Position numbers and translations under genes: made by a program. 64,000 nt of DNA, from IMG/VR virus record IMGVR_UViG_3300038317_000166. One strand, written 5' to 3'. Of the stretch, positions 11,755 to 39,554 are shown in pieces (within the stretch, counting starts at the first letter, position 1; each line of letters begins with the position of its first letter). The notes beneath the pieces were generated by a model. That model ran no database searches. It saw only the letters and a list, made by a program, of their open reading frames with translations, and was not told the origin of the DNA. This DNA is from an uncultured virus (IMG/VR IMGVR_UViG_3300038317_000166). Lineage: Duplodnaviria > Heunggongvirae > Uroviricota > Caudoviricetes.

Positions 11755-11819
11755 TAGAATTACCTCCTTAATAATTTTTTGGAGGTCTTGACCTCCTACC
11801 TGGTAGCCACAGGAGTTGG

Positions 11820-12365: not shown

Positions 12366-12620
12366 TAGATTCTCCTGTTCCCGTCTGTAAAACGGCGGAG
12401 TACTAATGAGCCTTAAAAACAAATGACCAACAGATTTACTTCCTAAAAAATGTGTAGGAAATAAAACGGAGGATCATAAATTTTTCCAATAGCCTATCAG
12501 ACTATCTTCGATTCATTTATGTATCCGCCGTCTTCTGCTGGCCAGCTTTAGACGTATATAAATTTTTGTAAGGCTTGTTCCTTACATTTATTAATATAAT
12601 TGGTTTTCAAATTTCACGAG

Positions 12621-12723
12621 CAACTCGATGAGTTGGCTTTTGTTTGTTTATATATGGACATTTCCCGAATTTGGGCATAAAAAAAGAACCCCTTTCGGGG
12701 TTCAAAACCAACTCAACGAGTTA
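12621..12723. promoter_or_regulatory. Two palindromic operators AACTC-N3-GAGTT
   Basis: CAACTCgatGAGTTG at 12621-12635 and AACTCaacGAGTT at 12710-12722. Confidence 0.6.
12678..12703 (-). terminator. Rho-independent terminator of the R-M/IrrE operon
   Basis: GAACCCC-GAAA-GGGGTTC followed by T7 on the minus strand. Confidence 0.85.
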
Positions 12724-18161: not shown

Positions 18162-18174
18162 ATACCTAACCTCC

Positions 18175-23312: not shown

Positions 23313-23383
23313 TATAATTATCCCTCAATTCATAAAAATTTTTATTATAACGTTTAAAGCCACGTCAAGTCATGAGAGGTGCC

Positions 23384-24765: not shown

Positions 24766-24862
24766 AATCAAATCCCCCTTACTCCACGCCAAAGCTTTAA
24801 ACACAGCTTTCTGCGGTGTATTGTAAATATCAGACTCCGATAATGCCCTCCTTGCATCGTTA

Positions 24863-25921
24863 TTAAATTGCACCAAAGTGCTCTTCCACAATCCTGTTGA
24901 GCTGCGCAGCGATTTCTACAAATTCCAAATTCAAGTCCAGCGTTTTTACACTTATTTTATTACCGCTCATCTGATAAGCATTGTCCGGCTGGATTGTTTC
25001 GTCGGTTTTGGCGTACAGAAGCATTCCCGATACTTTATGTGGTTTCTCTCCAAATTCTGAGTCTTTATTTTTCACATAGGTGAATATCTGGTACAGATTG
25101 CTGGAATGAAGGGTATGCACGTCAAATTGAACCTGTGTCGTATGTGTATAGTATTTTGCGTCGATAATCAGCACTTCGTTTCCCCTGGCAAGAGTAATAT
25201 CGCTTTGCATTATTGGAAGCATTGTACCGATGCCATCGTCCAATGCCCATGGTATCTGCGATGCGTTTACATTCAATGCTGGAAATTCCTTGCTGTAGTA
25301 TTCCACGATAAATTTCTCATAAAGACGGCACATCCGCTGCTCATCGACAAACGATGCGAGCTTATATTCTCCTTGTTCCGTTGTCTGAAGCATTCCTTGC
25401 AGAATAAGCTGGCAAATACTGATGAGCATACGGTAGGTCTGGTTGTTTCTTTGAAACCGGATTGTTGCCCATTTTATAGATGATGGCTCCAATGTGTCCA
25501 CGTTTGAAAAAAACAGCATTTCTTTCTTAAGAGCATCCTTGTGTTCGCTATCAACCTTTGAAAGACGAAGCAGGATCATCACGGTCGTTTTTAGAATTTG
25601 ATTTAACAGGTTATTTTCTGATAGGTCGTCGTACTCGCAGGACAAAACCTGCTGGCGAGCAATTTTGTTTTTGATAGTGCCTGAAATATCGATTTTGCCA
25701 TGCATAACCGCCATGTTTTCTGTCTTATTCAGATACTCACGATATAAACCCTGCTTCAATTGCTGCCCGATGCCTTTAGCGAGAATCGCAGCAAAGAGAT
25801 TGTGCATATTCTCAAATTCCTCAGTCGCCACATCCTCAAAATTTGACTGATTCAGAGTGGTGAATGCATAGGAAAGCATATAGTATATGTTCTTGATAAA
25901 GATACTCTTATCCTTAATCAT
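24863..25921 (-). CDS. mcrC: McrC nuclease subunit
   Basis: NIYYMLSYA, LYEKF, SDI..IIDAKYY, NLYQIFTY. Confidence 0.93.
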   Translation of the reverse strand: MIKDKSIFIKNIYYMLSYAFTTLNQSNFEDVATEEFENMHNLFAAILAKGIGQQLKQGLYREYLNKTENMAVMHGKIDISGTIKNKIARQQVLSCEYDDLSENNLLNQILKTTVMILLRLSKVDSEHKDALKKEMLFFSNVDTLEPSSIKWATIRFQRNNQTYRMLISICQLILQGMLQTTEQGEYKLASFVDEQRMCRLYEKFIVEYYSKEFPALNVNASQIPWALDDGIGTMLPIMQSDITLARGNEVLIIDAKYYTHTTQVQFDVHTLHSSNLYQIFTYVKNKDSEFGEKPHKVSGMLLYAKTDETIQPDNAYQMSGNKISVKTLDLNLEFVEIAAQLNRIVEEHFGAI

Positions 25922-28308
25922 TGAAATACACCACGCAGAATGTTTTCCCAGCGCTGCAACTTACCACTGTCATCGAACCAGTATTCACTCAGCATCGGTA
26001 AAATGTCATAGTCAATAATGGAGTGCATCCATTCGTCAGTGCAGACGGTCTGCCCGCAAAAATAGCTATGCCCAATACAGAATCCTTTACCGAGGGATTT
26101 GTCAAGCGCGATTTCCTTGTTAAGCTCTTTTACACGTTCGATAAGAGTGTTGAATGTTTCATTATTCAAACCATTTTGGTATTTTACAAAGCCTTCGGAG
26201 TCAAAGCCCGGCTCGATTTCAAAGAAGCTGAAACGACGGCGGAGGGCATAATCAATCATAGCAAGACTGCGGTCAGCAGTATTCATCATGCCAATAATAT
26301 AAAGGTTCTTTGGCACAGCAAACGACAAGCCGTTATATGCAAGTGTGGCTTTCGTGCCACGATAATCACACTCAATCAACATAAGCAATTCGCCGAAGAT
26401 TTTACTCATATTGCCACGATTGATTTCGTCTATGATAAAGAAGAAGTCCTTGTCCGGCTGGTTTGCAGCCTTCTGGCAGAAACGATAGAAGATGCCATAT
26501 TTTAGTTCGAATCCGTCATTCACAGGCTTATAGCCCATCATAAAATCTTCGTAAGAGTAATTCTGGTGGAACTGGACGAATTCAATGCGGTTTTCGTCCT
26601 TTTCTCCAATCATCGAGTATGCGAGGCGCTTTGCTGCGAAAGTTTTCCCGACACCGGGTGCCCCCTGCAGAATAATGTTCTTTTTGTTTTTCAGGACAGA
26701 AAGCAGCATATCATAGCGGCTCTCTGTCATGTAAACCTCATTAAGGAAGTCCGCCTTGTCATACTTTTCTGATTTTTCTTCTTGAACAAGTGGATTTTCA
26801 TCCCGAATCATATCGACGATAAAATCATACTCGCCCTTTGTCAGCTTAAACAAGCTGCCTTGGGGATTGCTGAAATACTCCATTCTCTCCAGCTCAGAGC
26901 AGCTTTTCAGCGTTTGATAATCAATCGGCGAGGAAAGCCCCTCGATTTTTTCAAAATAGATTTTCTCACCATCTTGTTCCGCACTAACTTTGCCAATCGC
27001 CACAATTTGTTTAACCGGGTTCGATTCATAGCCAATTATCATGTCTCCGGCTTTTGCATCCAAGAAATTTTGAAAAATGCGACGTTTGTTGCCATTGTCA
27101 TTATAGAGTGTATACGACTGTACTTCACCAACAGCAATTTCCGAAAAACTCCATATTTTCGGATTTGCATTAAGCCACCAATAGCCATGTTCCTCTTCAC
27201 CTGGAGCTGCAGCAACGTACAATTCCACTTGGCTTAGGTCAACCTTATCGAGGGCAGCAGATAATTCGTCTCGTAGTTTCCATATATAGCTGCCAGATTC
27301 ATCTTTACCAGCATTTCGTCCAACATACAGAATCGGCCACCAGCGAGAGTTTTCTTCATCTCTATCCATTACAGGACAGCCGGTTTTTTCTGCAATACGA
27401 CGTGCCAAAGCAGAAGAACCGCTATTATAGAAGTTCTTCGTTTCACCGTATTTGATAGAGAGCTGGGTACATGTAGCCTGCCCGCCGTAGTCCTTCATAC
27501 GCTTCATGATTTCAAGGCTCCCGGTTGTAAACACATCGGGGTCATTAAGTAGTTCTACCCACTCATCGACAGAAATGTTTGGCGTGTAATCTGTTGGAAA
27601 CCAGTCGTCAGTGGCTACGGATTCTTTCTGGGAAAAGTAGCGACTGATGTAAAAGCCGATATCAATTGTAAGCGTTCTGTATTCCGGGTCTGGATAGCAA
27701 TCCCCCGTTAGCTGGGATTTAAGCAGACTTACAAGTTCTTCATCTTTTTTGATTTCCGCACATAGCTCATCATAGAAATTATAGAAATTGCGCAAATTGT
27801 CCGCATATGCGCCTTTCTTGAATCGATAATCGCTGCCGAGTTCATCTGCAACAGTTTTTATCTCGCCATATTTATAAATATAGTATTTGTCGGGATAACG
27901 CAGCCATAAGTAGGTGCTGACGGCATTTTCATACTGATAATGCTGTCCTGCGCCGTTGCCATACTTTTCGAGCAGAATGGATGACTGGTCTTTAAAATCT
28001 GTAATTCTGGTAACGACATCCTTGCTTTCATCAAACAAAGCAAGGAACATCGCCCGTACTTCTTCAGGAGCCGTTTCCGCAAATTTCTCAATCATTCGCG
28101 CAGGAAAGTTATTCATGGACGCAAGCAAATTATATGTTTTTGAAAGGGAAAGAGTCAGCATGGCGGCAAAATCCGCTGCATTCACATCCCAATTGTCCTG
28201 AAAGAATTTTACTGCTTCCCACTTGTATTTCTCGTTTCCCCATTGGTTAGAAACGAAATTCTGCTTGTATTTTACAAGAGCGTCCTGCAAACGGAATTTC
28301 TCAAACAT
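25918..28308 (-). CDS. mcrB: McrB AAA+ GTPase with an extended N-terminus including an EVE-like domain
   Basis: GAPGVGKT, QFHQNYSYEDF, IDEINR, MNTADRS, ALRRRF; YWWLNANP EVE-like start. Confidence 0.93.
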   Translation of the reverse strand: MFEKFRLQDALVKYKQNFVSNQWGNEKYKWEAVKFFQDNWDVNAADFAAMLTLSLSKTYNLLASMNNFPARMIEKFAETAPEEVRAMFLALFDESKDVVTRITDFKDQSSILLEKYGNGAGQHYQYENAVSTYLWLRYPDKYYIYKYGEIKTVADELGSDYRFKKGAYADNLRNFYNFYDELCAEIKKDEELVSLLKSQLTGDCYPDPEYRTLTIDIGFYISRYFSQKESVATDDWFPTDYTPNISVDEWVELLNDPDVFTTGSLEIMKRMKDYGGQATCTQLSIKYGETKNFYNSGSSALARRIAEKTGCPVMDRDEENSRWWPILYVGRNAGKDESGSYIWKLRDELSAALDKVDLSQVELYVAAAPGEEEHGYWWLNANPKIWSFSEIAVGEVQSYTLYNDNGNKRRIFQNFLDAKAGDMIIGYESNPVKQIVAIGKVSAEQDGEKIYFEKIEGLSSPIDYQTLKSCSELERMEYFSNPQGSLFKLTKGEYDFIVDMIRDENPLVQEEKSEKYDKADFLNEVYMTESRYDMLLSVLKNKKNIILQGAPGVGKTFAAKRLAYSMIGEKDENRIEFVQFHQNYSYEDFMMGYKPVNDGFELKYGIFYRFCQKAANQPDKDFFFIIDEINRGNMSKIFGELLMLIECDYRGTKATLAYNGLSFAVPKNLYIIGMMNTADRSLAMIDYALRRRFSFFEIEPGFDSEGFVKYQNGLNNETFNTLIERVKELNKEIALDKSLGKGFCIGHSYFCGQTVCTDEWMHSIIDYDILPMLSEYWFDDSGKLQRWENILRGVFQ

Positions 28309-28319
28309 GATACCCCTCC

Positions 28320-31289
28320 TTAGGCTTTACGCAGGCTTGCGTATATTTCATCAGTAAAGATGCCTAGTACCTGCCGCTTTATTTCTTCGTTGCTCAAAAG
28401 CATCGAGAAAAAGTCCTGATTCTGCGAAAGCCCCTCGATAAGGGCATCGTCGATGTCGTCAAAATAGGAAAACTCAAAATCTTTGACGGTGTTGTTTCTG
28501 GCGCTGGTTTTCAGTTTATCTGATTTTAGCAGTATGTCCCGGATTTGCAGCATTGCTTTTACCGCAACATCATTGTCATAGGTTTTTCCTGTTCGACTAT
28601 TGATTTCCGCAATAATCTGGGAGAGTTTTTCTTCCTTTGCTTCGGTCAAGCCAAAGCTATCAGCCGTCGGCAGCTTCATAACCGGTTGCGCTACAAGCTC
28701 AGATTTTTTATGCTCCTCGTCCTTTTTCTGAACGAAATTGGTTGCCTTGATTTTTCCATCGAGGTTATAGCCGCCACCCGGATGCTTGATGTTGATGTAA
28801 GAAAGCAAGTAAGTAATGAAATTGTACTTCTTGTGCAGGTCTACATCCTCAAAACAGGAAACTTGGAGCAAAAATTCATAAAAACGAACGAAGTGGCGCA
28901 TGAGAGCTACGATCTCCTGCTGCTTGGTCACATCGTAATTTTCAATCAGATTTTTCGCCTTTTTGAAATAGAAGGTCAGTTTCTGCTTGTCCTTCGAAGT
29001 AATGTTATCACTGTAGAGCAGGTTGTTGGCCTTCTCAATATCATCCGGGTCAAGAACGGTATAGGAGTCGATATTAGCTTCAAGATCATAAATTGCCGTG
29101 GGTGTCACCGAATTTGACAGCAATGTCGTCGTGTAATATGGTGCAAAGGCAGCGGTAATATCCGCATAATCGTTTACGAAGTCCAACACGAATGTATGCT
29201 TCTCAAATGGCGGGAAGATGCGGTTCAAGCGTGACAGCGTCTGCACGGCTGTAACACCTTTTAGCTTTTTCATAACATACATGGCGCACAGCTTCGGCTG
29301 GTCGAATCCCGTCTGATATTTATTTGCCACAAGCAGGACTTGATAATCGTCCTTGTCAAATTTCTTGGTGAGCTGATCTTCAGAAAAACCGTTCATGGAG
29401 GATTCGGTGTATTCGGTTGTATCATCGTCCGGCAGCTTGACCTTGCCGGAGAAAGCCACCAGAGCGTGAATGTCCTTGTAACCTTTTTTCGTGATATAAC
29501 TCTCAAAAGCCTGACGGTATTTAACAGCGCCCTGGCGCGAAGCTGTAATCACCATTGCTTTTGCCATGCCGCCCAGCTCCGTCATAACGGAAGTGCGGAA
29601 ATGCTCAACAATGACCTCAATGCGCTGTGAGATGTTCGTTTCGTGCAGTTCCACGAATCGGGCAATCTGCCGCTTGGCGTCAGAAGTCTTGCAGCGTGGG
29701 TCGTCCTCGATTTCTTTATTTATCTGATAAAAGGTATCGTAAGTCGTGTAGTTCTGCAGCACATCAAGAATAAAGCCCTCTTCTATTGCTTGCTTCATAG
29801 AATAGACATGGAACGCCTCGCGCTGTCCCTTGGTATTCAACATCCCAAAAAGCTGAAGCGTGGTCGGCTTCGGCGTCGCCGTAAACGCAAACATTGAAAC
29901 ATTAGCCTGCTTACCGTTGCGAGCAATCTCATCAACGATCATATCCTGTGCATCACCGAAGTCCTGCTCACCAGCACCCAGCGACTGCGTAACGGCAGCC
30001 ATATCCTTTCCGGCAGTGGATGAATGCGCCTCATCAATTATGACAGCAAATCGTTTCGTTTTCAGCCCCGCGACACTGTCCACGATATACGGAAATTTCT
30101 GAATCGTAGTTGCGATGATTTTTGTGTTGCCTTTGAGGGCGATTGCAAGGTCGGCAGAGTTGCACTTGTCGTCCATCACACGGATAAGGCCTGTTTTGTG
30201 CTCCATACCCATGATGGCCTTTTGAAGCTGACGGTCGACAACCACACGGTCAGTGATGATGACCACATTGTCAAAGATGATTTTATCGTCAGCGTCATGC
30301 AGTGACGTGAGCCGATGCGCCAGCCAAGCGATAGAATTTGTTTTGCCGGAGCCTGCGCTGTGCTGAATCAGATAATTTTGCGCGGTTTTATTTTCGCTAA
30401 CGTCGCCCAATAGCTTACGAATGACGTCCAACTGGTGGTAACGCGGAAAAATGATACTTTCAGACTTTTTGATTTTGCCAGTAAACTCGTCCTCTTTTTC
30501 TTTTGTCTCTACAAATATAAACTTGCTGATGAGGTTGAGCAAGGTATCCTTTGTGAGAATATCCTCCCACATATAGGACACGCTGTACTTGTCCTTGAAG
30601 GTGGGATTGCCCGCTCCGGCGTTGACGCCTTTTCCGTTACCGATATTGAACGGCAGAAAGAAGGTGGAGTCGCCAGATAATTTCGTGGTCATATAGACCT
30701 CTTCCAGATCCATCGCAAAGTTGACGAGGCAGCCTGCCTTAAACAGGAAAAGGCGTGTCTTCGGATTGCGTTCACAGCGGTATTGATAAATGCCGTCCTG
30801 GTAGGACTGCCCGGCGGCATTGCACTTTAGCTCAAAGGACATGATGGCAAGTCCGTTCAGGAAGATAACCAAATCGACTCGTTCCTTGTCGCTTGCCCAG
30901 ACCTCCTCCATAACGGAGAAGATGTTCTTTTCATAGTTCGCAAGCAGTTCCCTGTTAAATGTGGTAGCTGGTTTGGTATACATCAGTTCCAGCTTCATGC
31001 TGGAAATTTCAATTCCGTGTTTCAGGATGTCCAATAGACTGCCGCGAGCTTTTGTCGCCTCGGCATTGATAAAGCTGACAAGGGTCTCCTCCAAATCATC
31101 CTTATATATTTTGCGCAGTGCCGTCATTGTTGCGCCCTGCGTATCGTTCAGAAATTTGAACAGCATCTCACGGTCGATGGAAAACAGGCGGTCATAGGAG
31201 GTGGCTTTACGAATCACATAACCGTTATCCTGCTCCAGCCGTTCCATGATGAAATGCTGGTATTCTTTTTCGGATAAGATGTTATTCAT
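28320..31289 (-). CDS. hsdR: Type I restriction endonuclease R subunit
   Basis: DLVIFLNG..ELK, HSAGSGKT, DEAH, FTATP, TGFDQP, QTLSRLNR. Confidence 0.96.
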   Translation of the reverse strand: MNNILSEKEYQHFIMERLEQDNGYVIRKATSYDRLFSIDREMLFKFLNDTQGATMTALRKIYKDDLEETLVSFINAEATKARGSLLDILKHGIEISSMKLELMYTKPATTFNRELLANYEKNIFSVMEEVWASDKERVDLVIFLNGLAIMSFELKCNAAGQSYQDGIYQYRCERNPKTRLFLFKAGCLVNFAMDLEEVYMTTKLSGDSTFFLPFNIGNGKGVNAGAGNPTFKDKYSVSYMWEDILTKDTLLNLISKFIFVETKEKEDEFTGKIKKSESIIFPRYHQLDVIRKLLGDVSENKTAQNYLIQHSAGSGKTNSIAWLAHRLTSLHDADDKIIFDNVVIITDRVVVDRQLQKAIMGMEHKTGLIRVMDDKCNSADLAIALKGNTKIIATTIQKFPYIVDSVAGLKTKRFAVIIDEAHSSTAGKDMAAVTQSLGAGEQDFGDAQDMIVDEIARNGKQANVSMFAFTATPKPTTLQLFGMLNTKGQREAFHVYSMKQAIEEGFILDVLQNYTTYDTFYQINKEIEDDPRCKTSDAKRQIARFVELHETNISQRIEVIVEHFRTSVMTELGGMAKAMVITASRQGAVKYRQAFESYITKKGYKDIHALVAFSGKVKLPDDDTTEYTESSMNGFSEDQLTKKFDKDDYQVLLVANKYQTGFDQPKLCAMYVMKKLKGVTAVQTLSRLNRIFPPFEKHTFVLDFVNDYADITAAFAPYYTTTLLSNSVTPTAIYDLEANIDSYTVLDPDDIEKANNLLYSDNITSKDKQKLTFYFKKAKNLIENYDVTKQQEIVALMRHFVRFYEFLLQVSCFEDVDLHKKYNFITYLLSYINIKHPGGGYNLDGKIKATNFVQKKDEEHKKSELVAQPVMKLPTADSFGLTEAKEEKLSQIIAEINSRTGKTYDNDVAVKAMLQIRDILLKSDKLKTSARNNTVKDFEFSYFDDIDDALIEGLSQNQDFFSMLLSNEEIKRQVLGIFTDEIYASLRKA

Positions 31290-31650
31290 CAGTTTTCGCC
31301 TCCTGCTTGTCTCTTAATATGAAATTACGCCCATTGTTGTCACTAAATACGATTTCGGTAAGCCTTGTGCCATTCAACACATACACCTCGCACCATGTGT
31401 CGAGGAGAGTTCTGCCTGCCCATCTTTCTTTGACGGTGTATATGACATTACCGCTTTTTTCGAGCCATTGCTGAATGGCATCATTTACATTATCATCGAA
31501 ATGAGAAACCGTATCGAAGTGCACACAAAATCCTTTAACCGCGATTTCAAGCAAACGATACTCTTCGTCGTCTTTGAGTGCCTTTATAAAATCGGTGCCT
31601 TTTATAACCAAACTTGGCATATTTCCATAATATGAGTAATCTACTTTCAT
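31282..31650 (-). CDS. Hypothetical protein inserted between hsdS and hsdR
   Basis: Overlaps both neighbours, RBS GGAGGTG; family not recognised. Confidence 0.7.
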   Translation of the reverse strand: MKVDYSYYGNMPSLVIKGTDFIKALKDDEEYRLLEIAVKGFCVHFDTVSHFDDNVNDAIQQWLEKSGNVIYTVKERWAGRTLLDTWCEVYVLNGTRLTEIVFSDNNGRNFILRDKQEAKTDE

Positions 31651-32948
31651 TGGGCAGGCACCTCCTTTTTCCCCGTGACATACTCATAGATGAGAGATTT
31701 TTTGTATTCTTCGAGAACGACGAGTTGCTCTCTTTTTTTGTAAATGATCTCCTCGGCTTTTCGGCAAGCCTCATCTAAATAGTCGCAGATTGAAGTCTGT
31801 TCTTCATTTGTGGTTGGCAAATTAATATAAATATCTTTCACCTTATCCCACGAACGAAAGTCGCTTGTATTCCCGCGTACACCGTTAGATATTAGTTTAT
31901 ACACACCTTGAAAAGCAAGGTGCTGTAGATAATAGACAATAAACCGTTTATCAGCAGTGCTGTCGCACACATGAACCACGCGTGTTATTTTTCCCTTAAA
32001 ATCAGATATAGCAATTGCTCCGTGCCATGTATCCATTCCATGTATTGCAATGTCGCCTTCATGGATTCCTTGCATCGCGTTATCTTCACTAACCATCTTA
32101 CCAACTGCATCTGCGTCCCTAATTAGCACTTTCCCTTGATTTGAGCAGACCAAAGCAGTATCTTCCGCTTCAAAATAACGAGATAGTTTTGTACATATAT
32201 ATCCAATCTTTGTTAATCGCCACGTGGCGTTAACGGGACCGATATAAAATATCCTGCTTTCCTTCATCTCGACGGCAGGGTTTAAGCCTTTTGTGACCGC
32301 TTCGGTGATAATGGAACGCTTATATTGCTCCAAGGTGTCAATCTGCGATTGAATATCGACAGCAAGGCTGTCGATCTCGGCACACTTGGCATCGAGGATA
32401 TCGGAAATAATTCGCTGTTCATACGCAGTTGCCACTGGAACAACTAAATCCCCAAACTTATCCATGGGTATGCGCATACGAATTGTATTTAACTTTCCAT
32501 TGCCGGACTCTTTTATGAGAATGCCGTTACCAAGACCAAATAAACTTTTCTGAAAAACGGTAGTCTGAAAAATATAGTTAAAATATCTCACATCATCTTC
32601 ATTACTATACGGTCTAAGCATATAATACACGGGGCTTACGCATCCGAAATATCGTGACAATCCAACCGAGCCAGAAAGTATATTCATGCTGTTCATCACT
32701 ATATCGCCCGGATATGCCAATCTATACGCACTCACATCTTCTTTTGGCTTATTACCGCCGCCTTCTTTTTCGTCATAAGGAATGACCCCCTGCTTTGCAG
32801 TAAGAGATAAAATATCAGATGTTCTTATTGGATTATTTTTTTCTATACGCTCTTTTAATGTGTATTTGATTTTTTTAAGTTTCCAGCTTGATGGGATTTC
32901 TTTGAGCCATTGTATACCGCTATCTTTCATCTGTCTCAATATCATCAC
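31647..32948 (-). CDS. hsdS: Type I specificity subunit
   Basis: MKDSGIQW..IP..W, EQ..I..LD, SIITEAVTKGL, YEYVTGK. Confidence 0.93.
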   Translation of the reverse strand: MMILRQMKDSGIQWLKEIPSSWKLKKIKYTLKERIEKNNPIRTSDILSLTAKQGVIPYDEKEGGGNKPKEDVSAYRLAYPGDIVMNSMNILSGSVGLSRYFGCVSPVYYMLRPYSNEDDVRYFNYIFQTTVFQKSLFGLGNGILIKESGNGKLNTIRMRIPMDKFGDLVVPVATAYEQRIISDILDAKCAEIDSLAVDIQSQIDTLEQYKRSIITEAVTKGLNPAVEMKESRIFYIGPVNATWRLTKIGYICTKLSRYFEAEDTALVCSNQGKVLIRDADAVGKMVSEDNAMQGIHEGDIAIHGMDTWHGAIAISDFKGKITRVVHVCDSTADKRFIVYYLQHLAFQGVYKLISNGVRGNTSDFRSWDKVKDIYINLPTTNEEQTSICDYLDEACRKAEEIIYKKREQLVVLEEYKKSLIYEYVTGKKEVPAQ

Positions 32949-32952: not shown

Positions 32953-35058
32953 TTAATCGAACAGCTTTGCTACGCGCTCATTGATTGATTTCTCAAGCGT
33001 AGTAAAGCGTTCCTCCAGCTCTTCACTGGGAGTAGGCTGCTGATATTTGTAAAAATAGCGGGTAAACGGTATCTCAGCGCCGGTCTTGATGATCGGCTTT
33101 TTTTTGCTCAAATCTTCTTCAAAAAATGCTTTCGCATCGGGGATGTGCGGCAGGACTTCTCGCGCCATGTAGGTGTCGATGTCTTCCTGGTATTTTACGA
33201 TTTCAGTATCCTTCGATTCTTTGTCATAGATGATTTCGCCCTTCTTGTCACGCTGAATCTCAGCGTTCTTATCCATGACGGAAAGACCGTCCGCAATTTT
33301 TTCAATCAACTTATTGTCTGCGGTTGCAGAAGACAGTACCTTTGTCAGTACAGGCAGAAACGCAGCCGGGGAGAGGTAGACTTCCTCAGAAGCAGCGGCT
33401 TCCAGTGCGGCAACGATGCCGTCAAACACAGGCTTGTTGTTCTGATAATCCTCCAGCTTCTTTACGTCCTTGCCGGACAGTTCTTCTTCAGAATTTTCCA
33501 GTTCGCTGACTTTGCCCTCGTCATATAAAGAACTGAGCGCGCCTTTGGAAAGCATCTGCTGGATGCGTTCTTCTGTGATGGCGTAGCTCCTTTGAAGCGG
33601 CTGCATCACGGTATATTCGCGGTAGATGAACTCTTCGTTGTTATAGATTTTGCAAAACTCGCTTTCTTTGAAGTCCGCATATATCCGTGTAATAGAGGAG
33701 CGATCTTCCGGAGCAATCTCGTTTTTCTTGTTGCCCAGAGCTTTGCGGAGTTTATGATAAATTCCGGAAGCGTCAATTAACTGAATTTTTCCCTTGCGCT
33801 CGGCACGTTTGTTTTTTGACAGTACCCAAATATATGTAGCGATACCGGTATTGTAAAAGAGGTCAGTCGGCAACGCAATAATCGCTTCAATTAGGTCGCT
33901 TTGCAGCAGCCAACGGCGGATCTGGCTTTCGCCGGATGCTGTGCCACCAGAAAACAGCGGACTGCCGTTTTGAATGATGGCTGCACGTCCATTATGCTTG
34001 TCCATTTTGTCGATTGCAGATTGCAAAAACAGCATCTGCATATCACCGGTACTAGGAAGCCCAGCGCCCCAGCGCCCGTCAAATCCCTTTTTGAATTCGT
34101 CATTTACCGCAGTCTCAACGCCCTCGGCAGCGTCCTTACCGCCCCACGCCGTACCGAATGGCGGATTTTCGAGCACGAAGCGCATCTCCGTACCCTTAAA
34201 GCGATCATCTATCATGGTATCCTGATAACAGATGTTCTCGGAGTTCTGCCCTTTGATGAGCATCTCGGCAAGGCACATTGCATAGGATTCCGGGTTGATT
34301 TCCTGCCCAAAAAGCCGAACGTCGGCGGAGGGGTTATAACGCTTGATGAAATTGTAGCCGGTGGAGAGCATACCGCCTGTGCCGCAGGCTTGGTCGAGTA
34401 TCGTGATAACCTTGCCATCATCAAAAATGTCGTCGCAGCCCTCTGCCAGCAGAATATTGACCATCGTTTTGATGATATCCCTGCCGGTGTAGTGGTCGCC
34501 AGCCTCGGCATTTTCAGAGAACTTACGGATAAGTTCTTCGAAAATATATCCCATCTTCACGTTGTCAATAGTACGCGGATCGAGGTCAAGCTCCGAAAAC
34601 GCCTTGACGACACTGAGCAGACGATTATTTTTATCCATCTTGTCGATTTGCTTATAGAAATCAAGACCCTTTTCCGCAGAGAGCAGAATTTCCTGTACGT
34701 TGGGAGAAAAGCCTTGAATATAGCTTTTAAAATTGGCTGCGATATGATCGGCATCATTTACCAGCTCTGCAAGGTCGTACCCACTGGTATTGTAAAACTG
34801 AAAGCCGGAAATGCGATACATTGCCTTTGCCGGATAGGTCGGGTCAGCGTTATATTTATCGACGACCGCTTTTTTCGTATGCGCAAGGGCACACTCAAAA
34901 CGGCGGATGATAGTCATCGGAATGATGACATCCTTATATTTATCACTCTGGTACGGACCGCGCAGCTTGTTTGCGATAGACCAGATAAAGTTTACTTCTG
35001 TGGAAACATCAATGGGGCTGTCGTCCCACATTGCATCTATTACTTGTTTATCAACCAT
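32953..35058 (-). CDS. hsdM: Type I methyltransferase
   Basis: AGDHYT, DQACGTGGM, NPPF, GSPLFSG, EIPFTRYFY. Confidence 0.96.
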   Translation of the reverse strand: MVDKQVIDAMWDDSPIDVSTEVNFIWSIANKLRGPYQSDKYKDVIIPMTIIRRFECALAHTKKAVVDKYNADPTYPAKAMYRISGFQFYNTSGYDLAELVNDADHIAANFKSYIQGFSPNVQEILLSAEKGLDFYKQIDKMDKNNRLLSVVKAFSELDLDPRTIDNVKMGYIFEELIRKFSENAEAGDHYTGRDIIKTMVNILLAEGCDDIFDDGKVITILDQACGTGGMLSTGYNFIKRYNPSADVRLFGQEINPESYAMCLAEMLIKGQNSENICYQDTMIDDRFKGTEMRFVLENPPFGTAWGGKDAAEGVETAVNDEFKKGFDGRWGAGLPSTGDMQMLFLQSAIDKMDKHNGRAAIIQNGSPLFSGGTASGESQIRRWLLQSDLIEAIIALPTDLFYNTGIATYIWVLSKNKRAERKGKIQLIDASGIYHKLRKALGNKKNEIAPEDRSSITRIYADFKESEFCKIYNNEEFIYREYTVMQPLQRSYAITEERIQQMLSKGALSSLYDEGKVSELENSEEELSGKDVKKLEDYQNNKPVFDGIVAALEAAASEEVYLSPAAFLPVLTKVLSSATADNKLIEKIADGLSVMDKNAEIQRDKKGEIIYDKESKDTEIVKYQEDIDTYMAREVLPHIPDAKAFFEEDLSKKKPIIKTGAEIPFTRYFYKYQQPTPSEELEERFTTLEKSINERVAKLFD

Positions 35059-35126: not shown

Positions 35127-37403
35127 TTACGCCTCTATGCCCATCATCATATTGTAATGCTGTTCCTGATGCAGCGATTCAAAGATGAGCTTGAACACCG
35201 ATTTATACTGCTCGGCATCGATACAATCCTCAACATAATTCAAGCCGTCACTGATGCCCTGCGGATTGTTGATATAGGTCAGCATTGCCGAAGCAAGCTG
35301 ATATTTCTCGTAGTCCGGTTTACCGCCTTCTACGGGCGTTACGAATTTATCTTTATTATCATCTAGAACAAGCTTGCGGATGTTGGTCCCTTCATAACCG
35401 CAAAGCTGTAGGAAGTAGTATTCAAGAATACGACGGATTACATTGAGCAAAGGAATGGTGGATTTCAGTGCTCGGAATTCGTCCCACAGCGCCGCATAGG
35501 AATTTTGAACAGGATTGTAATTCTCTCTCTCGGTCGGGCTGCTTTCACTTTCGCGGTCACAAAGCTTGACCGTAGATACATTATCAGCTTTATGTATCAT
35601 ATAAAACGAAACGCTCTTGTAACGTCCGACCTGACGATATGTTATTTCTCTGTGGAAGTACACATTATGCGTAAGGATAAATATCTGTTTTATGTAGTCG
35701 CCCTGAACAGTTTGCCCGCGATAATCGGTATTGTTATAGCAGACTTCGACCATTTCACGAATGATCGCACTGACAATAAACAGCGTATTGCTATCCATGC
35801 TGGAAACCGGGTCATCAATAACCACAATTTTGTCTTTTACTTCGTCGCTGCTGTGACTGCCGCGAACAAGATTATAGAAATATAGAAAAGCAATAAAATT
35901 ACGCTCGCCCTCACTCAGCTTTACCGCGATACTTCCATCTTCACGGATAACCTCATAAACATTCGGAGTATCTTTCTTTTCACGAAGGCTGAAGCCTTGG
36001 AAGCCGGAATCTTTCAGAAGAGCATTTATGCTGGCAATGGCGGCTTGCGTATTTACTACCTGCTTATTAAGTTCTGCAATCTCTCCTGTCGCTGCATTGA
36101 AAGCACGGCGGGCAGCGGTTGCTTTGGATGTCAGTTCATCGGCTTCTTTTTGTAACTTAACCTGTTCCGCCTTATATTTTGCTACATCCGCACTCAGCAT
36201 GAAAGCAAGATGCTCCCACACCTGATTTACTGAGGATGTCTTTTTTGCCTTTTTGTCGTTCACGACATCGTTGTTTGCAATTATTTGACGATTGATTTCG
36301 TCAATAAGCGTACCAATTTCGATAAGCAGCGAATCCGTATCCTCGAGAGCCACAACAGACGTAGGTTCTTTCACCTTTCCGGCGATGCGCTGCTTGTTGA
36401 TTTCAATGCTGCTTTTCAACAGTGCTATTTTGTCTTTGTATTCCGTCACGTCAACGGTTGCAAGCACATCCTGTAAATTTGCTTGCAGCGTGTCTAAAAT
36501 GGCATCTGTTTCACGGGTGTAAGTAGCTTGAAAATCCGCAATATCGTCAATATCCTGCTGATATTGAGCATCAAAGCAAGCGGCAATTTCTTCATCAAAG
36601 CCCTCCGGCAGTTTCTGCTGGCAGAAAGGACACTTTCCATCAGCTCCTGCAACATAGTGGTCATGACCTTGCCGTACCCAGTCAGTGGCATGGAGTGCTT
36701 TCATAAATTTAGTGAATGATGATTCGCTGCTGCTAACGATAGCCTTGTCCATAAGGTCTTTTCCGGGTAACTTTCCATATGTGGTGGAACTGCCTGCTCT
36801 GGAGAAAAGCTTATATACTCTTGCAGAGGTATCAAATGCGATATCGTACATCTTCTTTAGAGCGGTTAAATCGTGCTCCGCTGGGGTGGGAACGGCTAAA
36901 ATGGCATCAGCAAACAGATTTATTCGTTTTTTGCCCTTCATGGCCTCATCAAAAGTTTCTCTTACAGTCTTTGTTTTGCTCCAGCAAGCATTCTGCAAAG
37001 AACTTAATGATGTGGCCATATCATCCCGCTTGCCGCCTGCCGCAGTAGTCAGTGTGCGGTACTGCTCATCAAACGAGGCTCTGTCAGCGGTTTTCTGCTC
37101 AACTTGCTTTTGAATCTCTATATTCGTATCACATACGGTAAATACACCTGCGAGATTCCCGTAATTTTGCAGATTGCTATTAATAAAGTCTTGGTCATAA
37201 ACCAAGATATCGTAGTCTGCGGCGGATTTTCCATCCTGCCAATCCAAGCTGGTATCAGAGCCGATAGCCTGCGCTATTGTTGATTTTCCGGCACCGTTTC
37301 TCCCATAGAAAAAATTGATAAAGGTTGGCTCAACCACGTCTCCGTTGAAGGTGGGGGTATTGAGCGTTATTTTTTTTATTGCGGATGGCATTTTAGACGT
37401 CAT
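35127..37403 (-). CDS. RloC-like (AAA_13) ABC ATPase with zinc hook and HEPN-like C-terminus
   Basis: GRNGAGKS, CPFCQQ, LSEGE, IDDPVSSMD, LTHN, NVIRRILEYYF. Confidence 0.85.
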   Translation of the reverse strand: MTSKMPSAIKKITLNTPTFNGDVVEPTFINFFYGRNGAGKSTIAQAIGSDTSLDWQDGKSAADYDILVYDQDFINSNLQNYGNLAGVFTVCDTNIEIQKQVEQKTADRASFDEQYRTLTTAAGGKRDDMATSLSSLQNACWSKTKTVRETFDEAMKGKKRINLFADAILAVPTPAEHDLTALKKMYDIAFDTSARVYKLFSRAGSSTTYGKLPGKDLMDKAIVSSSESSFTKFMKALHATDWVRQGHDHYVAGADGKCPFCQQKLPEGFDEEIAACFDAQYQQDIDDIADFQATYTRETDAILDTLQANLQDVLATVDVTEYKDKIALLKSSIEINKQRIAGKVKEPTSVVALEDTDSLLIEIGTLIDEINRQIIANNDVVNDKKAKKTSSVNQVWEHLAFMLSADVAKYKAEQVKLQKEADELTSKATAARRAFNAATGEIAELNKQVVNTQAAIASINALLKDSGFQGFSLREKKDTPNVYEVIREDGSIAVKLSEGERNFIAFLYFYNLVRGSHSSDEVKDKIVVIDDPVSSMDSNTLFIVSAIIREMVEVCYNNTDYRGQTVQGDYIKQIFILTHNVYFHREITYRQVGRYKSVSFYMIHKADNVSTVKLCDRESESSPTERENYNPVQNSYAALWDEFRALKSTIPLLNVIRRILEYYFLQLCGYEGTNIRKLVLDDNKDKFVTPVEGGKPDYEKYQLASAMLTYINNPQGISDGLNYVEDCIDAEQYKSVFKLIFESLHQEQHYNMMMGIEA

Positions 37404-37459
37404 AATTTTTCTCCTTCCACCGAGATTGGTCGGTATTTACGAAATGTGATTGTTGTCTA

Positions 37460-37660
37460 TCAGTCTTTAATTTTTCCTTTTCGTACCCATTCATCAACTT
37501 CGGAAATTTTGAACTTATATCTCTTTCCAGCTTTGTTGATGGGGAGTTTGCCTTCACGCATCCATGTGCGGACGGTGTCCTTGCTCACACTGAGATATTC
37601 TGCAATATCCTCAAGGTTTACCCACTTTTCAGTAACAATATTTTCTTTCTCGCTGCTCAT
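37460..37660 (-). CDS. Excisionase-like HTH DNA-binding protein
   Basis: EDIAEYLSVSKDTVRTW..GKLP..KAGKRYKF..EVDEW. Confidence 0.88.
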   Translation of the reverse strand: MSSEKENIVTEKWVNLEDIAEYLSVSKDTVRTWMREGKLPINKAGKRYKFKISEVDEWVRKGKIKD

Positions 37661-37703: not shown

Positions 37704-38330
37704 TTAAAGCAGTGTATCCAAACCTGCGTTACGCAGTTTTTCTATTATGTTTATCTGCTTAATTGTCCAATGCGTACTGTCGAATTCATTGAACGCCGAA
37801 GCACTGTCAATAGAAATTTCACAAGCAAGTTCATTCAATCGGCTCTGGGGTATTGGATACAGCAGATGAAAAGACACCCTAATACCATTGTCCTGAATGC
37901 TTATATCATTTACAAATCCGAGGTATGCTTGTTGATTCCCACCCGCACAACAATATTGATAATTTTTGCCTGCAAATATAGCTGGGAAGGTCTTTATTGC
38001 TGCAATGGCATCTATATCGAGCGTTGCATATAAGGCTTTCAATTCAGGTGTTATACTTTCGGTTAAGGCACACTTCTTCGGTACTATAAAATATCCTCCA
38101 GTAAATGTTTCATCGCCGATAACGAAAAGATTATAATAATCCTCATTTATAGTCCGTCTTGTCGGTAGTGTTACACCGTTTGCTTGGACAACAGGGATAT
38201 AAACGCTTTTCATGTTTACCACATTTGCTTGAGCAATCAGCGTGTTCCCGTCACCGGGTAGAGTTATATTTGCCGATGCGCCTCTCGACGGAAGGACGGA
38301 CGATGAGATCTGCTGAAGTTTTTCACTCAT
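37704..38330 (-). CDS. Hypothetical protein: N-terminal short N/Q/G motif plus globular domain
   Basis: Start overlaps the upstream stop by 8 nt; YNLFV..FPAIFA..E..STHWTIK domain. Confidence 0.8.
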   Translation of the reverse strand: MSEKLQQISSSVLPSRGASANITLPGDGNTLIAQANVVNMKSVYIPVVQANGVTLPTRRTINEDYYNLFVIGDETFTGGYFIVPKKCALTESITPELKALYATLDIDAIAAIKTFPAIFAGKNYQYCCAGGNQQAYLGFVNDISIQDNGIRVSFHLLYPIPQSRLNELACEISIDSASAFNEFDSTHWTIKQINIIEKLRNAGLDTLL

Positions 38331-39255
38331 CTTTTTGCCCTCCGTTCTTAATATTTACTGTATCTACCTGATTATAGAAGCTGTTGTTATTGCCAGAAAT
38401 ATTGAAATTGAAGAATGTCGGATTGTTGTTTATAACCTGCTGCGTCAAATTGGATGCGGCAGGTTCTTTTTCTGCCGATTGTTCCTCACTACGAGGTTCA
38501 TCACCTGTCAGAGGCTCGTCCACCAAAGGCTCATCAACAATTTCGGCATCTACACTTTCCCCAAAGGACTCACAATAGGTTAGCGTGATATTCCTTGTTA
38601 TGAGGTTTGCAAGGTTACCTTTATACTCGCGCTTTCCGCCCCCGGTTGAGGGACACCACAAATTGATTGTTTCTTTACCGAAAGTGTTCCTTTCCGAACG
38701 GGTTACTGCGAAATACCAAACGCCTAATAAAAATGATTGCAAGCAAATATCTTTTGCTTTTAGAAGATCAGCTTTCGTTATGGTATCGCCATTCTCCAAT
38801 GAATAGAAAGGTTGACTATCCCCGATGGAGTCATCAACCTCAATTAATGCAATAAGTTCCTTAACAAGGCGAATATCTTTTTTCATGCTGCCTGTGTCAA
38901 CAAGCAAACCTATAACTTTGCACATATCTGCTAATGCGGTAGGATAACTTTCTTTGATACGTTCACCGAATGCGATCAATGCTGCATCATCACCGAAGGG
39001 GTATATTGAGCCACCTTCATTCTTACAAGTCTTATATTCCGAAGTATTGCCGCTAACAGTGCTGTCGGCGTATACAAATATACTTTTCCAATCAGGAACT
39101 ATCACCTTGGATAAGGCAAACAGAGCTATGGGTTCGGAATATGGCTCCGGATTTCCTGTATAGTATTCATTTGCTCCGTGCAGGGGCTTTCTTGCGCGTA
39201 AAAACAATGTGAAGAAAGTACCGCCGCAAAGGCGTTGTTTAACTGTTTTCGTCAT
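38323..39255 (-). CDS. Hypothetical protein: globular domain, acidic linker, C-terminal N/Q-rich motif
   Basis: 310-aa ORF, first gene of the leftward defence operon. Confidence 0.8.
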   Translation of the reverse strand: MTKTVKQRLCGGTFFTLFLRARKPLHGANEYYTGNPEPYSEPIALFALSKVIVPDWKSIFVYADSTVSGNTSEYKTCKNEGGSIYPFGDDAALIAFGERIKESYPTALADMCKVIGLLVDTGSMKKDIRLVKELIALIEVDDSIGDSQPFYSLENGDTITKADLLKAKDICLQSFLLGVWYFAVTRSERNTFGKETINLWCPSTGGGKREYKGNLANLITRNITLTYCESFGESVDAEIVDEPLVDEPLTGDEPRSEEQSAEKEPAASNLTQQVINNNPTFFNFNISGNNNSFYNQVDTVNIKNGGQKDE

Positions 39256-39280
39256 AGATTTTCACCACTTTTTCAAAAAC

Positions 39281-39336
39281 CAACTCGGCGAACTCCAACC
39301 AACTTAGCGAAGTATGGCTGGCGAACTCGGCAAACT
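39281..39336 (+). repeat. Short direct repeats (GCGAACT-like) in the divergent control region
   Basis: CTCGGCGAACT, CTTAGCGAAGT, CTGGCGAACT, CTCGGCAAACT. Confidence 0.55.
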
Positions 39337-39342
39337 ATCTCA

Positions 39343-39374
39343 TGTCCTTGTGAGAAATCGCAGGGGCATTTTTT
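39343..39374 (+). terminator. Terminator-like hairpin in the leader of the sigma-like gene
   Basis: 11-bp stem with G-U pairs, GAAA loop, T6 tail. Confidence 0.65.
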
Positions 39375-39554
39375 GTTGCTCTTGTATGGCGGCTAAGAGA
39401 GAAGAACCAATTTTGCAATTCACTCTAAACACCGCTAAACCATTATATCGCTTATTAACCCGAAAAACAATGGAATAAGTGTAAATTTTCACTAATTCTC
39501 GGAGATTTCCCCCCTGCGATTGCTCACGCAATTCAAATCACAGGAGGAAATCTA

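What the first reader, a model, noticed from the sequence alone, without database searches (positions are those of the whole stretch)
37704..39255. Candidate amyloid-motif-coupled two-gene defence system at the head of a defence operon
Seen: two unknown genes overlap by 8 nt. The 310-aa protein ends, after an acidic low-complexity linker, in NFNISGNNNSFYNQVDTVNI (38350-38409). The next 208-aa protein begins, after a Ser-rich leader, with NITLPGDGNTLIAQANVVNM (38211-38270). The ungapped alignment has 6/20 identities (N,G,N,Q,V,N) and the same hydrophobic pattern, and I see no other similarity between the proteins. Known: a short N/Q/G motif at the C-terminus of one protein and the N-terminus of its neighbour is the layout of amyloid signalling pairs (fungal HET-S/NWD2, bacterial BASS, and as I recall the E. 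coli Bab/Agp antiphage pair). Inference: the 208-aa domain (YNLFV..FPAIFA..THWTIK), which I recall fused to TIR/Abi effectors elsewhere, is a sensor that templates polymerisation of the 310-aa effector. No NLR is present. Caveat: the second motif contains a Pro.
Basis: partly seen in the sequence, partly recalled or inferred. Interest (0 to 1): 0.9.

Follow-up and report, generated by a model that had tools for sequence, protein, structure and literature searches.

The report
Amyloid-motif-coupled prophage defence gene pair
Two overlapping prophage genes encode an unknown helical protein and a small reader-like protein that carry matching, co-evolving 21-residue motifs at their facing ends, the hallmark of amyloid-based immune signalling, here without the usual NLR receptor.

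Summary
The 310-aa protein (A) and the 208-aa protein (B) overlap by 8 nt. Each carries an N/Q/G-rich 21-residue motif, at the C-terminus of A and the N-terminus of B.

- **This window alone:** similarity is weak (6 of 21 identities) and not above non-cognate background.
- **Related loci:** the two motifs co-vary. In 17 clades the cognate score was 53.9 against 32.6 ± 2.7 for shuffled partners (0 of 20,000 permutations).
- **Specificity:** a motif profile hit only A tails, B heads, two alternative upstream proteins and two frameshifted A tails among 6,412 ORFs.
- **Domain A:** confidently predicted, all-helical, no known fold. It also occupies the N-terminal slot of NACHT-SNaCT14 proteins.
- **Fusions:** seven A-B fusions checked lack the motif.
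- **Context:** the pair opens the cargo arm of a prophage family, usually ahead of an HTH, an RloC-like ATPase and restriction systems.

Best reading: an NLR-less amyloid-type sensor/effector module (about 0.6). Fibril formation and defence are untested. This scan had not seen the family before. It noted analogous pairs of other families.

The parts
38323..39255 (-). Gene A, 310 aa: N-terminal helical domain, acidic linker, C-terminal motif
   Evidence: ORF. 304 homologues at E <= 1e-3, none with a functional name (those named by a source are called 'hypothetical protein'). An A-family ORF lies directly upstream of B in 54 of 58 related loci.
38563..39255 (-). A globular domain (residues 1-231), all-alpha, no known fold
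38443..38562 (-). A acidic low-complexity linker (residues 232-271)
   Evidence: pLDDT below 50. Mean column conservation 0.28, against 0.61 for the domain and 0.63 for the motif region.
38350..38412 (-). A-side core motif FNFNISGNNNSFYNQVDTVNI (residues 282-302)
   Evidence: Gapless 21-column core shared with B heads. The motif profile hits 92 of 120 listed A-family proteins, all within 25 aa of the C-terminus.
38323..38330 (-). 8-nt overlap of A's stop with B's start (ATGAGTGA), with an SD sequence upstream
   Evidence: Read directly from the sequence. This suggests translational coupling.
37704..38330 (-). Gene B, 208 aa: leader, N-terminal motif, spacer, PUA-like domain
   Evidence: ORF. 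186 homologues. 484 clusters at 50% identity carry the domain.
38211..38273 (-). B-side core motif ANITLPGDGNTLIAQANVVNM (residues 20-40)
   Evidence: The motif profile hits 78 of 120 listed B-family proteins, all starting within the first 45 aa.
37707..38153 (-). B globular domain (residues 60-208), alpha/beta, PUA-like (EVE/YTH/ASCH-like)
37460..37660 (-). 66-aa HTH_17 / excisionase-family protein, frequent follower of B
   Evidence: Pfam HTH_17 1.7e-14. TIGR01764 passes its cut-off; MAD1 model 55.9 bits, below its cut-off of 80. A homologue lies within about 100 nt downstream of B in 41 of 58 loci.
35127..37403 (-). 758-aa AAA_13 (RloC-like, zinc-hook) ATPase, frequent follower
   Evidence: Pfam AAA_13 4.3e-124. 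PADLOC PDC-S06 3.9e-215, LmuB 1.5e-18, PrrC 2.3e-9. A homologue lies within 320 nt of B's end in 42 of 58 loci. The homologue in phage Javan105 is annotated RloC.
39256..39554 (.). Divergent intergenic region between A and the prophage's rightward replication operon
   Evidence: The rightward genes are a sigma-r4-like protein, DUF2800 nuclease, Enc34-type SSB, PolA and D5 primase.

Best explanation
A and B form a two-component, NLR-less immune module carried at the head of the cargo arm of a prophage. B is read as the sensor. It has a PUA-like (EVE/YTH/ASCH-type) ligand-binding domain preceded by a short N/Q/G-rich motif. A is read as the effector. It has a helical domain of unknown fold followed by a disordered acidic linker and the cognate motif.

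Proposed mechanism, all inferred. B binds an infection cue, plausibly a modified nucleotide or nucleic acid. This clusters B molecules, so their N-terminal motifs adopt a stacked in-register beta (amyloid-type) fold. That fold templates the matching tail of A, and the resulting clustering or refolding of A switches on its toxic activity (abortive infection).

Shown here: the motifs are specific to the facing termini, co-vary toward identity between partners, and are kept by selection at protein level. They are dispensable when A and B are fused. Both domains recombine with known immune domains.
For: **Synteny.** An A-family ORF lies directly upstream of B on the same strand in 54 of 58 loci. 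Two further loci are cut by the contig end. Two have another upstream protein.

**Co-variation.** With one representative per 70%-identity clade (17 clades from 49 pairs), the cognate tail-head score was 53.9 against 32.6 ± 2.7 for permuted partners, and 0 of 20,000 permutations reached it. The cognate head was the best match in 10 of 17. In the 21-column core, cognates average 8.9 identities against 5.4. Column 12 is identical in 61% of cognate pairs against 15% of non-cognate pairs. Examples: L035 TIVNQYGEKNIHIDRVETLNL / TTVNQYGEKNVHIDHADNIHQ; L041 IFIQQNGDGNMVIPNYGTINI / EKFVQTGNDNVLIPNYGTVNI.

**Not recent gene conversion.** At identical residues the codon is the same in 127 of 277 cases, against 112 expected from codon usage.

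**Specificity.** The motif profile hit 100 of 6,412 ORFs from the loci: 47 A, 49 B, 2 alternative upstream proteins and 2 frameshifted A tails. No unrelated ORF was hit.

**Effector swap.** In L029 and L030 a different protein precedes B. Its residues 5-149 match a PADLOC LmuA model at E 2.3e-22. Its tail..NNPTIVNQYGEKNVHIEHVDNLKL, matches B's head.

**Fusions.** A+NACHT+SNaCT14 (P0241, P0243, P0249), A+NACHT (P0245), A+B fusions (P0259, P0262, P0276, P0281, P0242, P0246, P0247), trypsin+B, kinase+B, B+TIR and motif+B+NB-ARC all occur. The four NACHT fusions and the seven A-B fusions named here have no motif-profile hit.

**Composition.** The core is N 18%, I 11%, V 10.5%, T 9.4%, G 9%, Q 7.7%, P 1.2%. 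The motif is as conserved as the globular domain, whereas the linker is not.

**Precedents.** Bab/Agp is an amyloid pair in a prophage defence island. BASS pairs are described. PUA-like sensing of a modified nucleotide that triggers immune polymerisation is reported in PMC12871103 (abstract and section 5 read).
Against: - No experiment and no amyloid predictor could be run.
- AF2 gives the motif regions pLDDT below 50.
- The window's own pair is weakly similar (6 of 21) and lacks the Q of the phi-Q-phi-G/A core seen in other clades.
- No Pfam RHIM or other amyloid-motif model matched any of the 59 A or 49 B family members, even at E <= 10.
- B has no NTPase to drive oligomerisation.
- One relative (P0382) places motif+B at the N-terminus of an NB-ARC protein, the slot usually held by effectors. 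B's role as sensor is therefore not certain.
- A's activity is unknown.
- The pair travels with the phage replication module and with an RloC-like ATPase (42 of 58). It could serve the phage, or be part of a larger system.
Confidence: 0.6

Rival explanations
1. The shared motif is a specific docking element that joins A and B in a defined, non-amyloid complex. This could be a two-stranded beta-zipper that holds A inactive, as in a toxin-antitoxin or tethered effector/regulator pair. Release or a conformational change, rather than templated polymerisation, would then activate A.
For: Everything that shows coupling fits this reading equally well: co-variation, A-B fusions that lack the motif, and translational coupling. 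No direct evidence for fibrils exists. B lacks an oligomerising NTPase. AF2 does not model the motif confidently.
Against: Partners co-vary toward the same residue in the same N-to-C register. Parallel in-register stacking predicts this; a complementary interface does not require it. The N/Q/G plus beta-branched composition, the disordered flanks and the terminal position match amyloid signalling motifs. The same tail works on an unrelated upstream domain.
Confidence: 0.25
2. The functional unit is larger: A, B, the HTH and the RloC-like zinc-hook ATPase act together, in a Lamassu-like arrangement. The ATPase would be the true sensor and B an adaptor that passes the signal to A.
For: An AAA_13 homologue follows B within 320 nt in 42 of 58 loci and the HTH follows in 41 of 58. 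Only L014 and L015 have neither. The ATPase hits PADLOC LmuB at 1.5e-18. The alternative upstream protein hits LmuA at 2.3e-22. The same four-gene order occurs in Streptococcus phage Javan105.
Against: 16 of 58 loci lack the ATPase next to B. In the 8 of these examined, a helicase/DUF4391/methylase restriction system follows instead. A itself has no PADLOC match. AAA_13/PDC-S06 proteins score as a stand-alone candidate system. The A+B, A+NACHT and B+TIR fusions never include the ATPase.
Confidence: 0.15
3. The pair serves the prophage's own biology rather than host defence. It could be a switch at the lysogeny/early-gene boundary that senses host state or superinfection, controlling induction or exclusion.
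For: A and B lie divergently next to the replication operon, where temperate phages often keep their control genes. They are conserved with that module (DUF2800 in 30, PolA in 27 of 43 loci), while the downstream cargo varies. The position is the same in Javan105, and none of the features overlapping the first 26 kb of that record is annotated as a repressor.
Against: Neither protein has a detectable DNA-binding domain. The A domain occurs on NACHT-SNaCT14 proteins. The B domain occurs with TIR, LmuA/Avs2-type protease and a PD-T4-6-like kinase, all immune contexts.
Confidence: 0.07

Closest known systems
Bab/Agp (BASS11) antiphage Abi pair of E. coli ECOR25 (bioRxiv 10.1101/2024.11.07.622273)
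   Same: Adjacent genes in a prophage defence island. The effector has a C-terminal motif of about 20 residues and the receptor has the same motif at its N-terminus. The bacterium is unicellular and the receptor is not an NLR.
   Different: [quoted passage not shown] Here the effector is a 231-residue domain of unknown fold and the receptor is a 150-residue PUA-like domain. The BASS11 sequence appears only in figures, so I could not align it. The few residues named in the text (I87-G88-S89-V90 at the start of a 23-residue motif, and N100) do not fit our motif in register.
Bell/NLR gene pairs with BASS1-10 motifs, including RHIM-like BASS3 (Dyrka et al., bioRxiv 10.1101/2020.01.06.895854)
   Same: Gene-pair layout, small overlaps between the ORFs, motif at the facing termini, and interchangeable effector domains. 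Several clades here carry N-phi-Q-phi-G/A (for example NNIQIG, NTQIG), close to the G-phi-Q-phi-G signature that the paper gives for RHIM/PP/BASS3.
   Different: The receptors there are NB-ARC or NACHT NLRs and the hosts are multicellular Actinobacteria and Cyanobacteria. Here there is no NLR. The hosts are mostly Clostridia, with some streptococcal prophages and Actinomycetes. The window's own clade lacks the Q. No Pfam RHIM match was found.
HET-S/NWD2 of Podospora anserina
   Same: The logic is the same: the sensor's N-terminal motif templates the C-terminal motif of a separately encoded death effector. 'All-in-one' fused architectures exist alongside split ones (as described).
   Different: That system is eukaryotic, with a two-repeat beta-solenoid motif on the effector, a HeLo pore-forming domain and a NACHT-WD receptor.
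Bacterial NACHT (bNACHT) all-in-one proteins with SNaCT C-terminal domains
   Same: The A domain is the N-terminal domain of NACHT-SNaCT14 proteins P0241, P0243 and P0249, and of the NACHT protein P0245.
   Different: The window's A is a stand-alone protein with a motif tail instead of a NACHT module. That the N-terminal slot of bNACHT proteins holds effectors is recalled knowledge, not tested here.
PUA-like modified-base readers in defence (EVE/YTH/ASCH fusions; PUA-Cal-HAD, PMC12871103)
   Same: A small PUA-like domain is coupled to interchangeable effectors. In PUA-Cal-HAD, ligand binding triggers polymerisation.

Membership tests
Amyloid signalling gene pair (BASS/FASS type) | Short motif at the C-terminus of one protein and the N-terminus of the protein encoded by the adjacent gene | tested here: met
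   Motif profile: 92 of 120 A-family hits, all C-terminal; 78 of 120 B-family hits, all N-terminal. Genes are adjacent in 54 of 58 loci.
Amyloid signalling gene pair (BASS/FASS type) | Motifs of a pair resemble each other more than motifs of other pairs (co-evolution) | tested here: met
   53.9 against 32.6 ± 2.7; 0 of 20,000 permutations; 17 clades. 8.9 against 5.4 identities of 21. For the window's own pair alone the test is not met (6 of 21; rank 8 of 37).
Amyloid signalling gene pair (BASS/FASS type) | Receptor is an NLR (NB-ARC or NACHT with repeats) | tested here: not met
   B is 208 aa with a PUA-like domain, and no STAND gene is at the locus. One relative has motif+B+NB-ARC (P0382). 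The Bab/Agp receptor is also not an NLR.
Amyloid signalling gene pair (BASS/FASS type) | Effector is a known death or immune domain (Bell/HeLo, TIR, CHAT, etc.) | tested here: not met
   A matched nothing in Pfam, PADLOC, PHROGs, NCBIfam, PDB or BFVD. Its immune role is inferred from the NACHT fusions.
Amyloid signalling gene pair (BASS/FASS type) | Motif forms amyloid fibrils or prion-like foci and cross-seeds | not testable with these tools
BASS3 / RHIM / PP motif | Central G-phi-Q-phi-G signature | tested here: not met
   In the window, A has NNSFYN and B has GNTLIA at that place. Q is present at column 12 in 11 of 31 A tails and 11 of 31 B heads, preceded by N rather than G. No Pfam RHIM hit.
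BASS11 (Bab/Agp) | Sequence match to the BASS11 consensus | tested here: inconclusive
   The consensus is given only in figures. The residues named in the text do not map in register.
PUA-like fold (EVE/YTH/ASCH) | Fold similarity over the whole domain | tested here: met
PUA-like fold (EVE/YTH/ASCH) | Match to the EVE, YTH or ASCH sequence models; conserved base-binding pocket | tested here: not met
   No Pfam hit for any of the 49 family members at E <= 10. The pocket residues were not examined.
Lamassu (LmuA/LmuB) | LmuA effector plus LmuB SMC-like ATPase | tested here: inconclusive
   A has no LmuA hit. The downstream ATPase hits LmuB at 1.5e-18 but hits PDC-S06 at 3.9e-215. Only the alternative upstream protein of L029 hits LmuA.

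The most novel reading that the evidence does not exclude
This would be a widespread, prophage-borne amyloid signalling system that needs no NLR. A PUA-like reader would be concentrated by a modified nucleotide or by phage nucleic acid, and that clustering alone would nucleate a cross-beta template. The template would switch on a new class of helical effector that is also used by bacterial NACHT proteins. The many co-varying motif classes would act as address labels, keeping co-resident sensor/effector pairs insulated from each other and letting effectors be exchanged between sensors.
Probability: 0.4. Interest if true: 0.88.

Novelty: new variant of a known kind. Interest (0 to 1): 0.8.

Why it matters
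Amyloid-based signalling in bacteria rests on one tested case (Bab/Agp) and on predicted Bell/NLR pairs in filamentous bacteria.

This family would extend it in several ways:
- to gut and anaerobic Firmicutes, streptococcal prophages and Actinomycetes;
- to a receptor of only about 150 residues with a reader-like fold;
- to an effector domain with no known fold that bacterial NACHT proteins also use.

The family offers natural controls that few systems have. There are many motif classes on near-identical domains, a natural effector swap, and fused versions without the motif. Specificity, templating and insulation between pairs can therefore be tested directly by motif swaps.

It also names two unannotated domain families (484 clusters for B, more than 300 proteins for A) that sit at the entry of prophage defence islands.

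Tried and rejected
**No family match.** For A or B, no significant match in Pfam, PADLOC, PHROGs or NCBIfam. Scanning all 59 A-family and 49 B-family members at E <= 10 gave no consistent family and no RHIM.

**No fold match for A.**
- Foldseek against PDB.
- BFVD.
- ESM Atlas gave no usable hit.

- Complex prediction on the two motif regions was unavailable and nothing was folded.
- The window's own assembly is not held. I could not ask whether other genes of the genome carry the motif.

**BASS11 comparison.** The sequence is not in the text of the preprint and bioRxiv supplements are closed. Those supplements may hold the consensus and accession lists.

**Readings rejected.**
- Chance or low-complexity similarity: rejected by the permutation and specificity tests.
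- Recent gene conversion as the cause of similarity: rejected by codon comparison.
- A as a plain repressor: no HTH found, and its NACHT fusions argue against it.

**Literature.** Searches found no paper describing this pair, or an amyloid motif on a PUA-like protein. Subscription journals are not covered.
Full report
**What is in the window.** Two ORFs lie on the minus strand: A (38323-39255, 310 aa) and B (37704-38330, 208 aa). A's stop and B's start overlap in ATGAGTGA, with GGAGGG 7 nt upstream of B's ATG. A consists of a conserved N-terminal part, an acidic linker (9 E and 4 D in 40 residues) and the tail QQVINNNPTFFNFNISGNNNSFYNQVDTVNIKNGGQKDE. B begins MSEKLQQISSSVLPSRGASANITLPGDGNTLIAQANVVNM. 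Neither protein matches a Pfam, PADLOC, PHROGs or NCBIfam family at a significant E-value; A's only rows are chance-level (Pfam DUF3667 at E 0.15, a PHROG at E 0.23).

**Is the resemblance more than chance?** In this window alone it is not. The two motifs share 6 of 21 aligned positions. Their local alignment score (41-43) is close to the mean for non-cognate pairs (about 36), and several foreign heads score higher.

Relatives decide the question. A has 304 homologues and B has 186 at E <= 1e-3; none carries a functional name. In the 120 listed A proteins, a hypervariable acidic linker is followed by a strongly conserved N/Q/G-rich tail that comes in several classes. The 120 listed B proteins start with a corresponding set of classes.

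A scan of one genome per species found 58 loci. An A-family ORF lies directly upstream of B on the same strand in 54 of them. Two loci are cut at the contig end, and two have a different upstream gene. Printed side by side, tail and head change together from locus to locus:
- L035: TIVNQYGEKNIHIDRVETLNL with TTVNQYGEKNVHIDHADNIHQ
- L041: IFIQQNGDGNMVIPNYGTINI with EKFVQTGNDNVLIPNYGTVNI
- L047: TVFNQRAEKIVNIEHVEHLQI with AGVNQQAEKIINVNRADSITT
- L052: VVFNQYGANSQQIGSVGTLNI with MVLNQLGANGVQIAHAGTVNA

**Statistics.** I used 49 pairs. Dropped before the count were:
- L036, L040 and L051, whose A tail is broken;
- L029 and L030, which have no A-family ORF;
- L033 and L058, which are cut by the contig end;
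- L056 and L057, whose B is frameshifted;
- the window itself, which is identical to L001.

Clustering B's globular domain at 70% identity gave 17 clades. With one representative per clade, cognate tail-head scores averaged 53.9 against 32.6 ± 2.7 for permuted partners. None of 20,000 permutations reached the observed value, and the cognate head was the best match for 10 of 17 tails. At 90% (30 representatives) and 60% (12 representatives) the result was the same.

All tails and heads align without gaps in a 21-column core. Over 31 pairs, cognates share 8.9 positions and non-cognates 5.4. Column 12 is identical in 61% of cognate pairs against 15% of non-cognate pairs. Relatedness of the sequences inflates such tests. 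Two observations speak for independent changes. B domains more than 70% identical carry quite different motif classes (L012/L016/L053; L014/L020), and their A partners differ in step.

Recent DNA exchange does not explain the likeness. At positions where partner residues are identical, the codon is the same in 127 of 277 cases, against 112 expected from codon usage. Nucleotide identity over the core is 38-68%.

A profile of the core hit 100 of the 6,412 ORFs of at least 50 aa in these loci and the window. The hits were 47 A, 49 B, the 2 alternative upstream proteins and 2 out-of-frame remnants of broken A genes. No unrelated ORF was hit. Divergent motif classes are missed by this profile: 28 of 120 A proteins and 42 of 120 B proteins had no hit, mostly the FNTFNFNGPIG-type tails and the 198-aa NIENHANVGNQ-type heads.

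**The two globular domains.**

A search for longer proteins found the A domain in several architectures:
- at the N-terminus of NACHT plus SNaCT14 proteins (P0241, P0243, P0249) and of the NACHT protein P0245;
- fused through a middle domain to B (P0242, P0246, P0247);
- in proteins that continue into a second motif (..CFSQTGDRNTLIAHADLVV..) and DUF6650 (P0244, P0248).

A search of 1.84 billion representatives found 484 clusters with this domain. Most are 200-220 aa with the domain starting near residue 60. The 21 longer proteins I scanned include:
- direct A+B fusions (P0259, P0262, P0276, P0281, P0374);
- X+B+TIR_2 (P0296, P0391) and AbiJ_NTD3+B+TIR_2 (P0332);
- a trypsin-like protease+B that hits PADLOC LmuA and Avs2 models (P0383);
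- a PD-T4-6-like kinase+B (P0396);
- an A-like domain+B+LRR (P0379);
- motif+B+NB-ARC (P0382).

The four NACHT fusions and the seven A-B fusions named above have no motif-profile hit. The motif is therefore present when the two domains are on separate chains and absent when they are joined.

**Natural effector swap.** In L029 and L030 the gene before B is not A. It encodes a 384-aa or 217-aa protein whose residues 5-149 match a PADLOC LmuA model (E 2.3e-22). It ends ..QIINNPTIVNQYGEKNVHIEHVDNLKL, matching B's ..KTVNQYGEKNVHIDTAENV.

**Context.** The window holds a prophage on the plus strand from 39.5 kb: a sigma-r4-like protein, DUF2800 nuclease, Enc34-type SSB, PolA, D5 primase, SNF2, terminase, portal, ClpP and capsid. 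A long minus-strand cargo arm begins with A and B. It continues with HTH_17, a 758-aa AAA_13 ATPase, a type I R-M system, McrBC with an EVE domain, Thoeris-like genes and a second type I R-M system.

In 43 related loci the replication module lies divergently upstream (DUF2800 in 30, PolA in 27). The downstream cargo varies between type I R-M and a helicase/DUF4391/methylase/Res system. An HTH homologue follows B in 41 of 58 loci and an RloC-like ATPase follows in 42 of 58. Only L014 and L015 have neither.

The pair also occurs in deposited phage genomes: four Streptococcus constellatus Javan prophages, a Lachnospiraceae phage and two of the faecal NatCom phages (PV036449, PV036420); a third, PV036423, matched with A only. 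In Javan105 the order is integrase ... methylases ... RloC - VrlI-like HTH - B - A, then the replication genes on the other strand.

By record titles, hosts are mostly Clostridia, with some Actinomycetes.

**How it most likely works.**

Shown:
- two proteins with cognate, position-matched terminal motifs under protein-level selection;
- domain contexts that are immune in character;
- the motif is dispensable in fusions.

Inferred:
- A is the effector, from its N-terminal slot on NACHT proteins and its replaceability;
- B is the sensor, from its reader-like fold and its fusions to effectors;
- the motifs act by in-register stacking.

The main argument for stacking over a conventional interface is that partners drift toward the same residue at the same position. 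A parallel cross-beta ladder predicts this. The composition points the same way: N 18%, I, V and T about 10% each, G 9%, Q 8%, P 1%. So do the disordered flanks and the likeness of several classes to the G-phi-Q-phi-G signature of RHIM/PP/BASS3.

Bab/Agp shows that such a pair, with a non-NLR receptor and in a prophage defence island, confers abortive infection in E. coli. PUA-Cal-HAD shows that a PUA-like domain can turn binding of a modified nucleotide into immune polymerisation.

I put about 0.6 on amyloid-type templating, about 0.25 on a non-amyloid docking motif, and the rest on a phage-regulatory role. A further question, which does not exclude any of these, is whether the RloC-like ATPase and the HTH belong to the same system (about 0.15).

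**Weak points.**
- There is no experiment, no amyloid predictor and no complex prediction.
- Model confidence in the motifs is low.
- The window's own pair is one of the least similar.
- The B fold is assigned at moderate Z.
- P0382 places B where effectors usually sit.
- A's activity is unknown.

**Novelty.** The principle is known; the members are not. Three literature searches and two look-ups of this scan's notes by sequence found nothing on either family. The scan has noted analogous motif-coupled pairs of other families on other DNA.

I file this as a new variant of a known kind: a new motif family with many classes, a new effector domain, a new minimal receptor, and a new host range and mobile-element context.

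Noticed in passing
window 12721-37403, minus strand: A dense defence island follows the pair. It holds an RloC-like AAA_13 ATPase, a type I R-M system (HsdM 32953-35058, a 433-aa ORF without a Pfam match in the HsdS position 31647-32948, HsdR 28320-31289), McrBC whose McrB carries an EVE domain (24863-28308), Thoeris-like genes (two ThsB-TIR and a ThsA-Macro, 22797-24891), and a second type I R-M system with a YgjP-like peptidase (14297-21998).
   Followed up: partly
window 35127-37660: The HTH_17 protein scores 55.9 bits on NCBIfam's MAD1 model, below the cut-off of 80. The AAA_13 ATPase has a Rad50 zinc-hook-like CPFCQQ segment and weak LmuB, PrrC, mad3 and mad8 hits. This pair follows B in most related loci and may or may not belong to the same system.
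   Followed up: partly
window 395-12422, minus strand: A second phage-like module sits beyond the island: Bro-N/ANT antirepressor, VapE-like primase, SNF2, small terminase, SAM synthetase, and N6/N4 and C5 methylases. The island is thus flanked by two phage-type gene sets running outwards.
   Followed up: no
window 11820-14343, minus strand: Two ORFs of 540 aa and 200 aa have no Pfam match at E <= 1e-5. They lie between the second R-M system and the antirepressor.
   Followed up: no
proteins P0244, P0248, P0331: A+middle domain+B fusions continue into a second motif of the same family (..CFSQTGDRNTLIAHAD..), followed by DUF6650. The motif therefore also heads a third, uncharacterised domain. 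The middle domain of about 150 aa (LLDLFEDAIDKYNI...) has no family match.
   Followed up: partly
loci L004, L007, L009, L019, L025, L031: Pairs at 41-90% B identity to the window (most at 78-90%) sit in metagenome bins titled Desulfobulbaceae, Paceibacterota, Limisphaerales, Bacteroides and Nanoarchaeia. This suggests mis-binned mobile DNA rather than true hosts.
   Followed up: no
loci L036, L040, L051, L056, L057: In these loci A or B is frameshifted or truncated, for example by a poly-K run in L036. They look like decaying copies or assembly errors.
   Followed up: no
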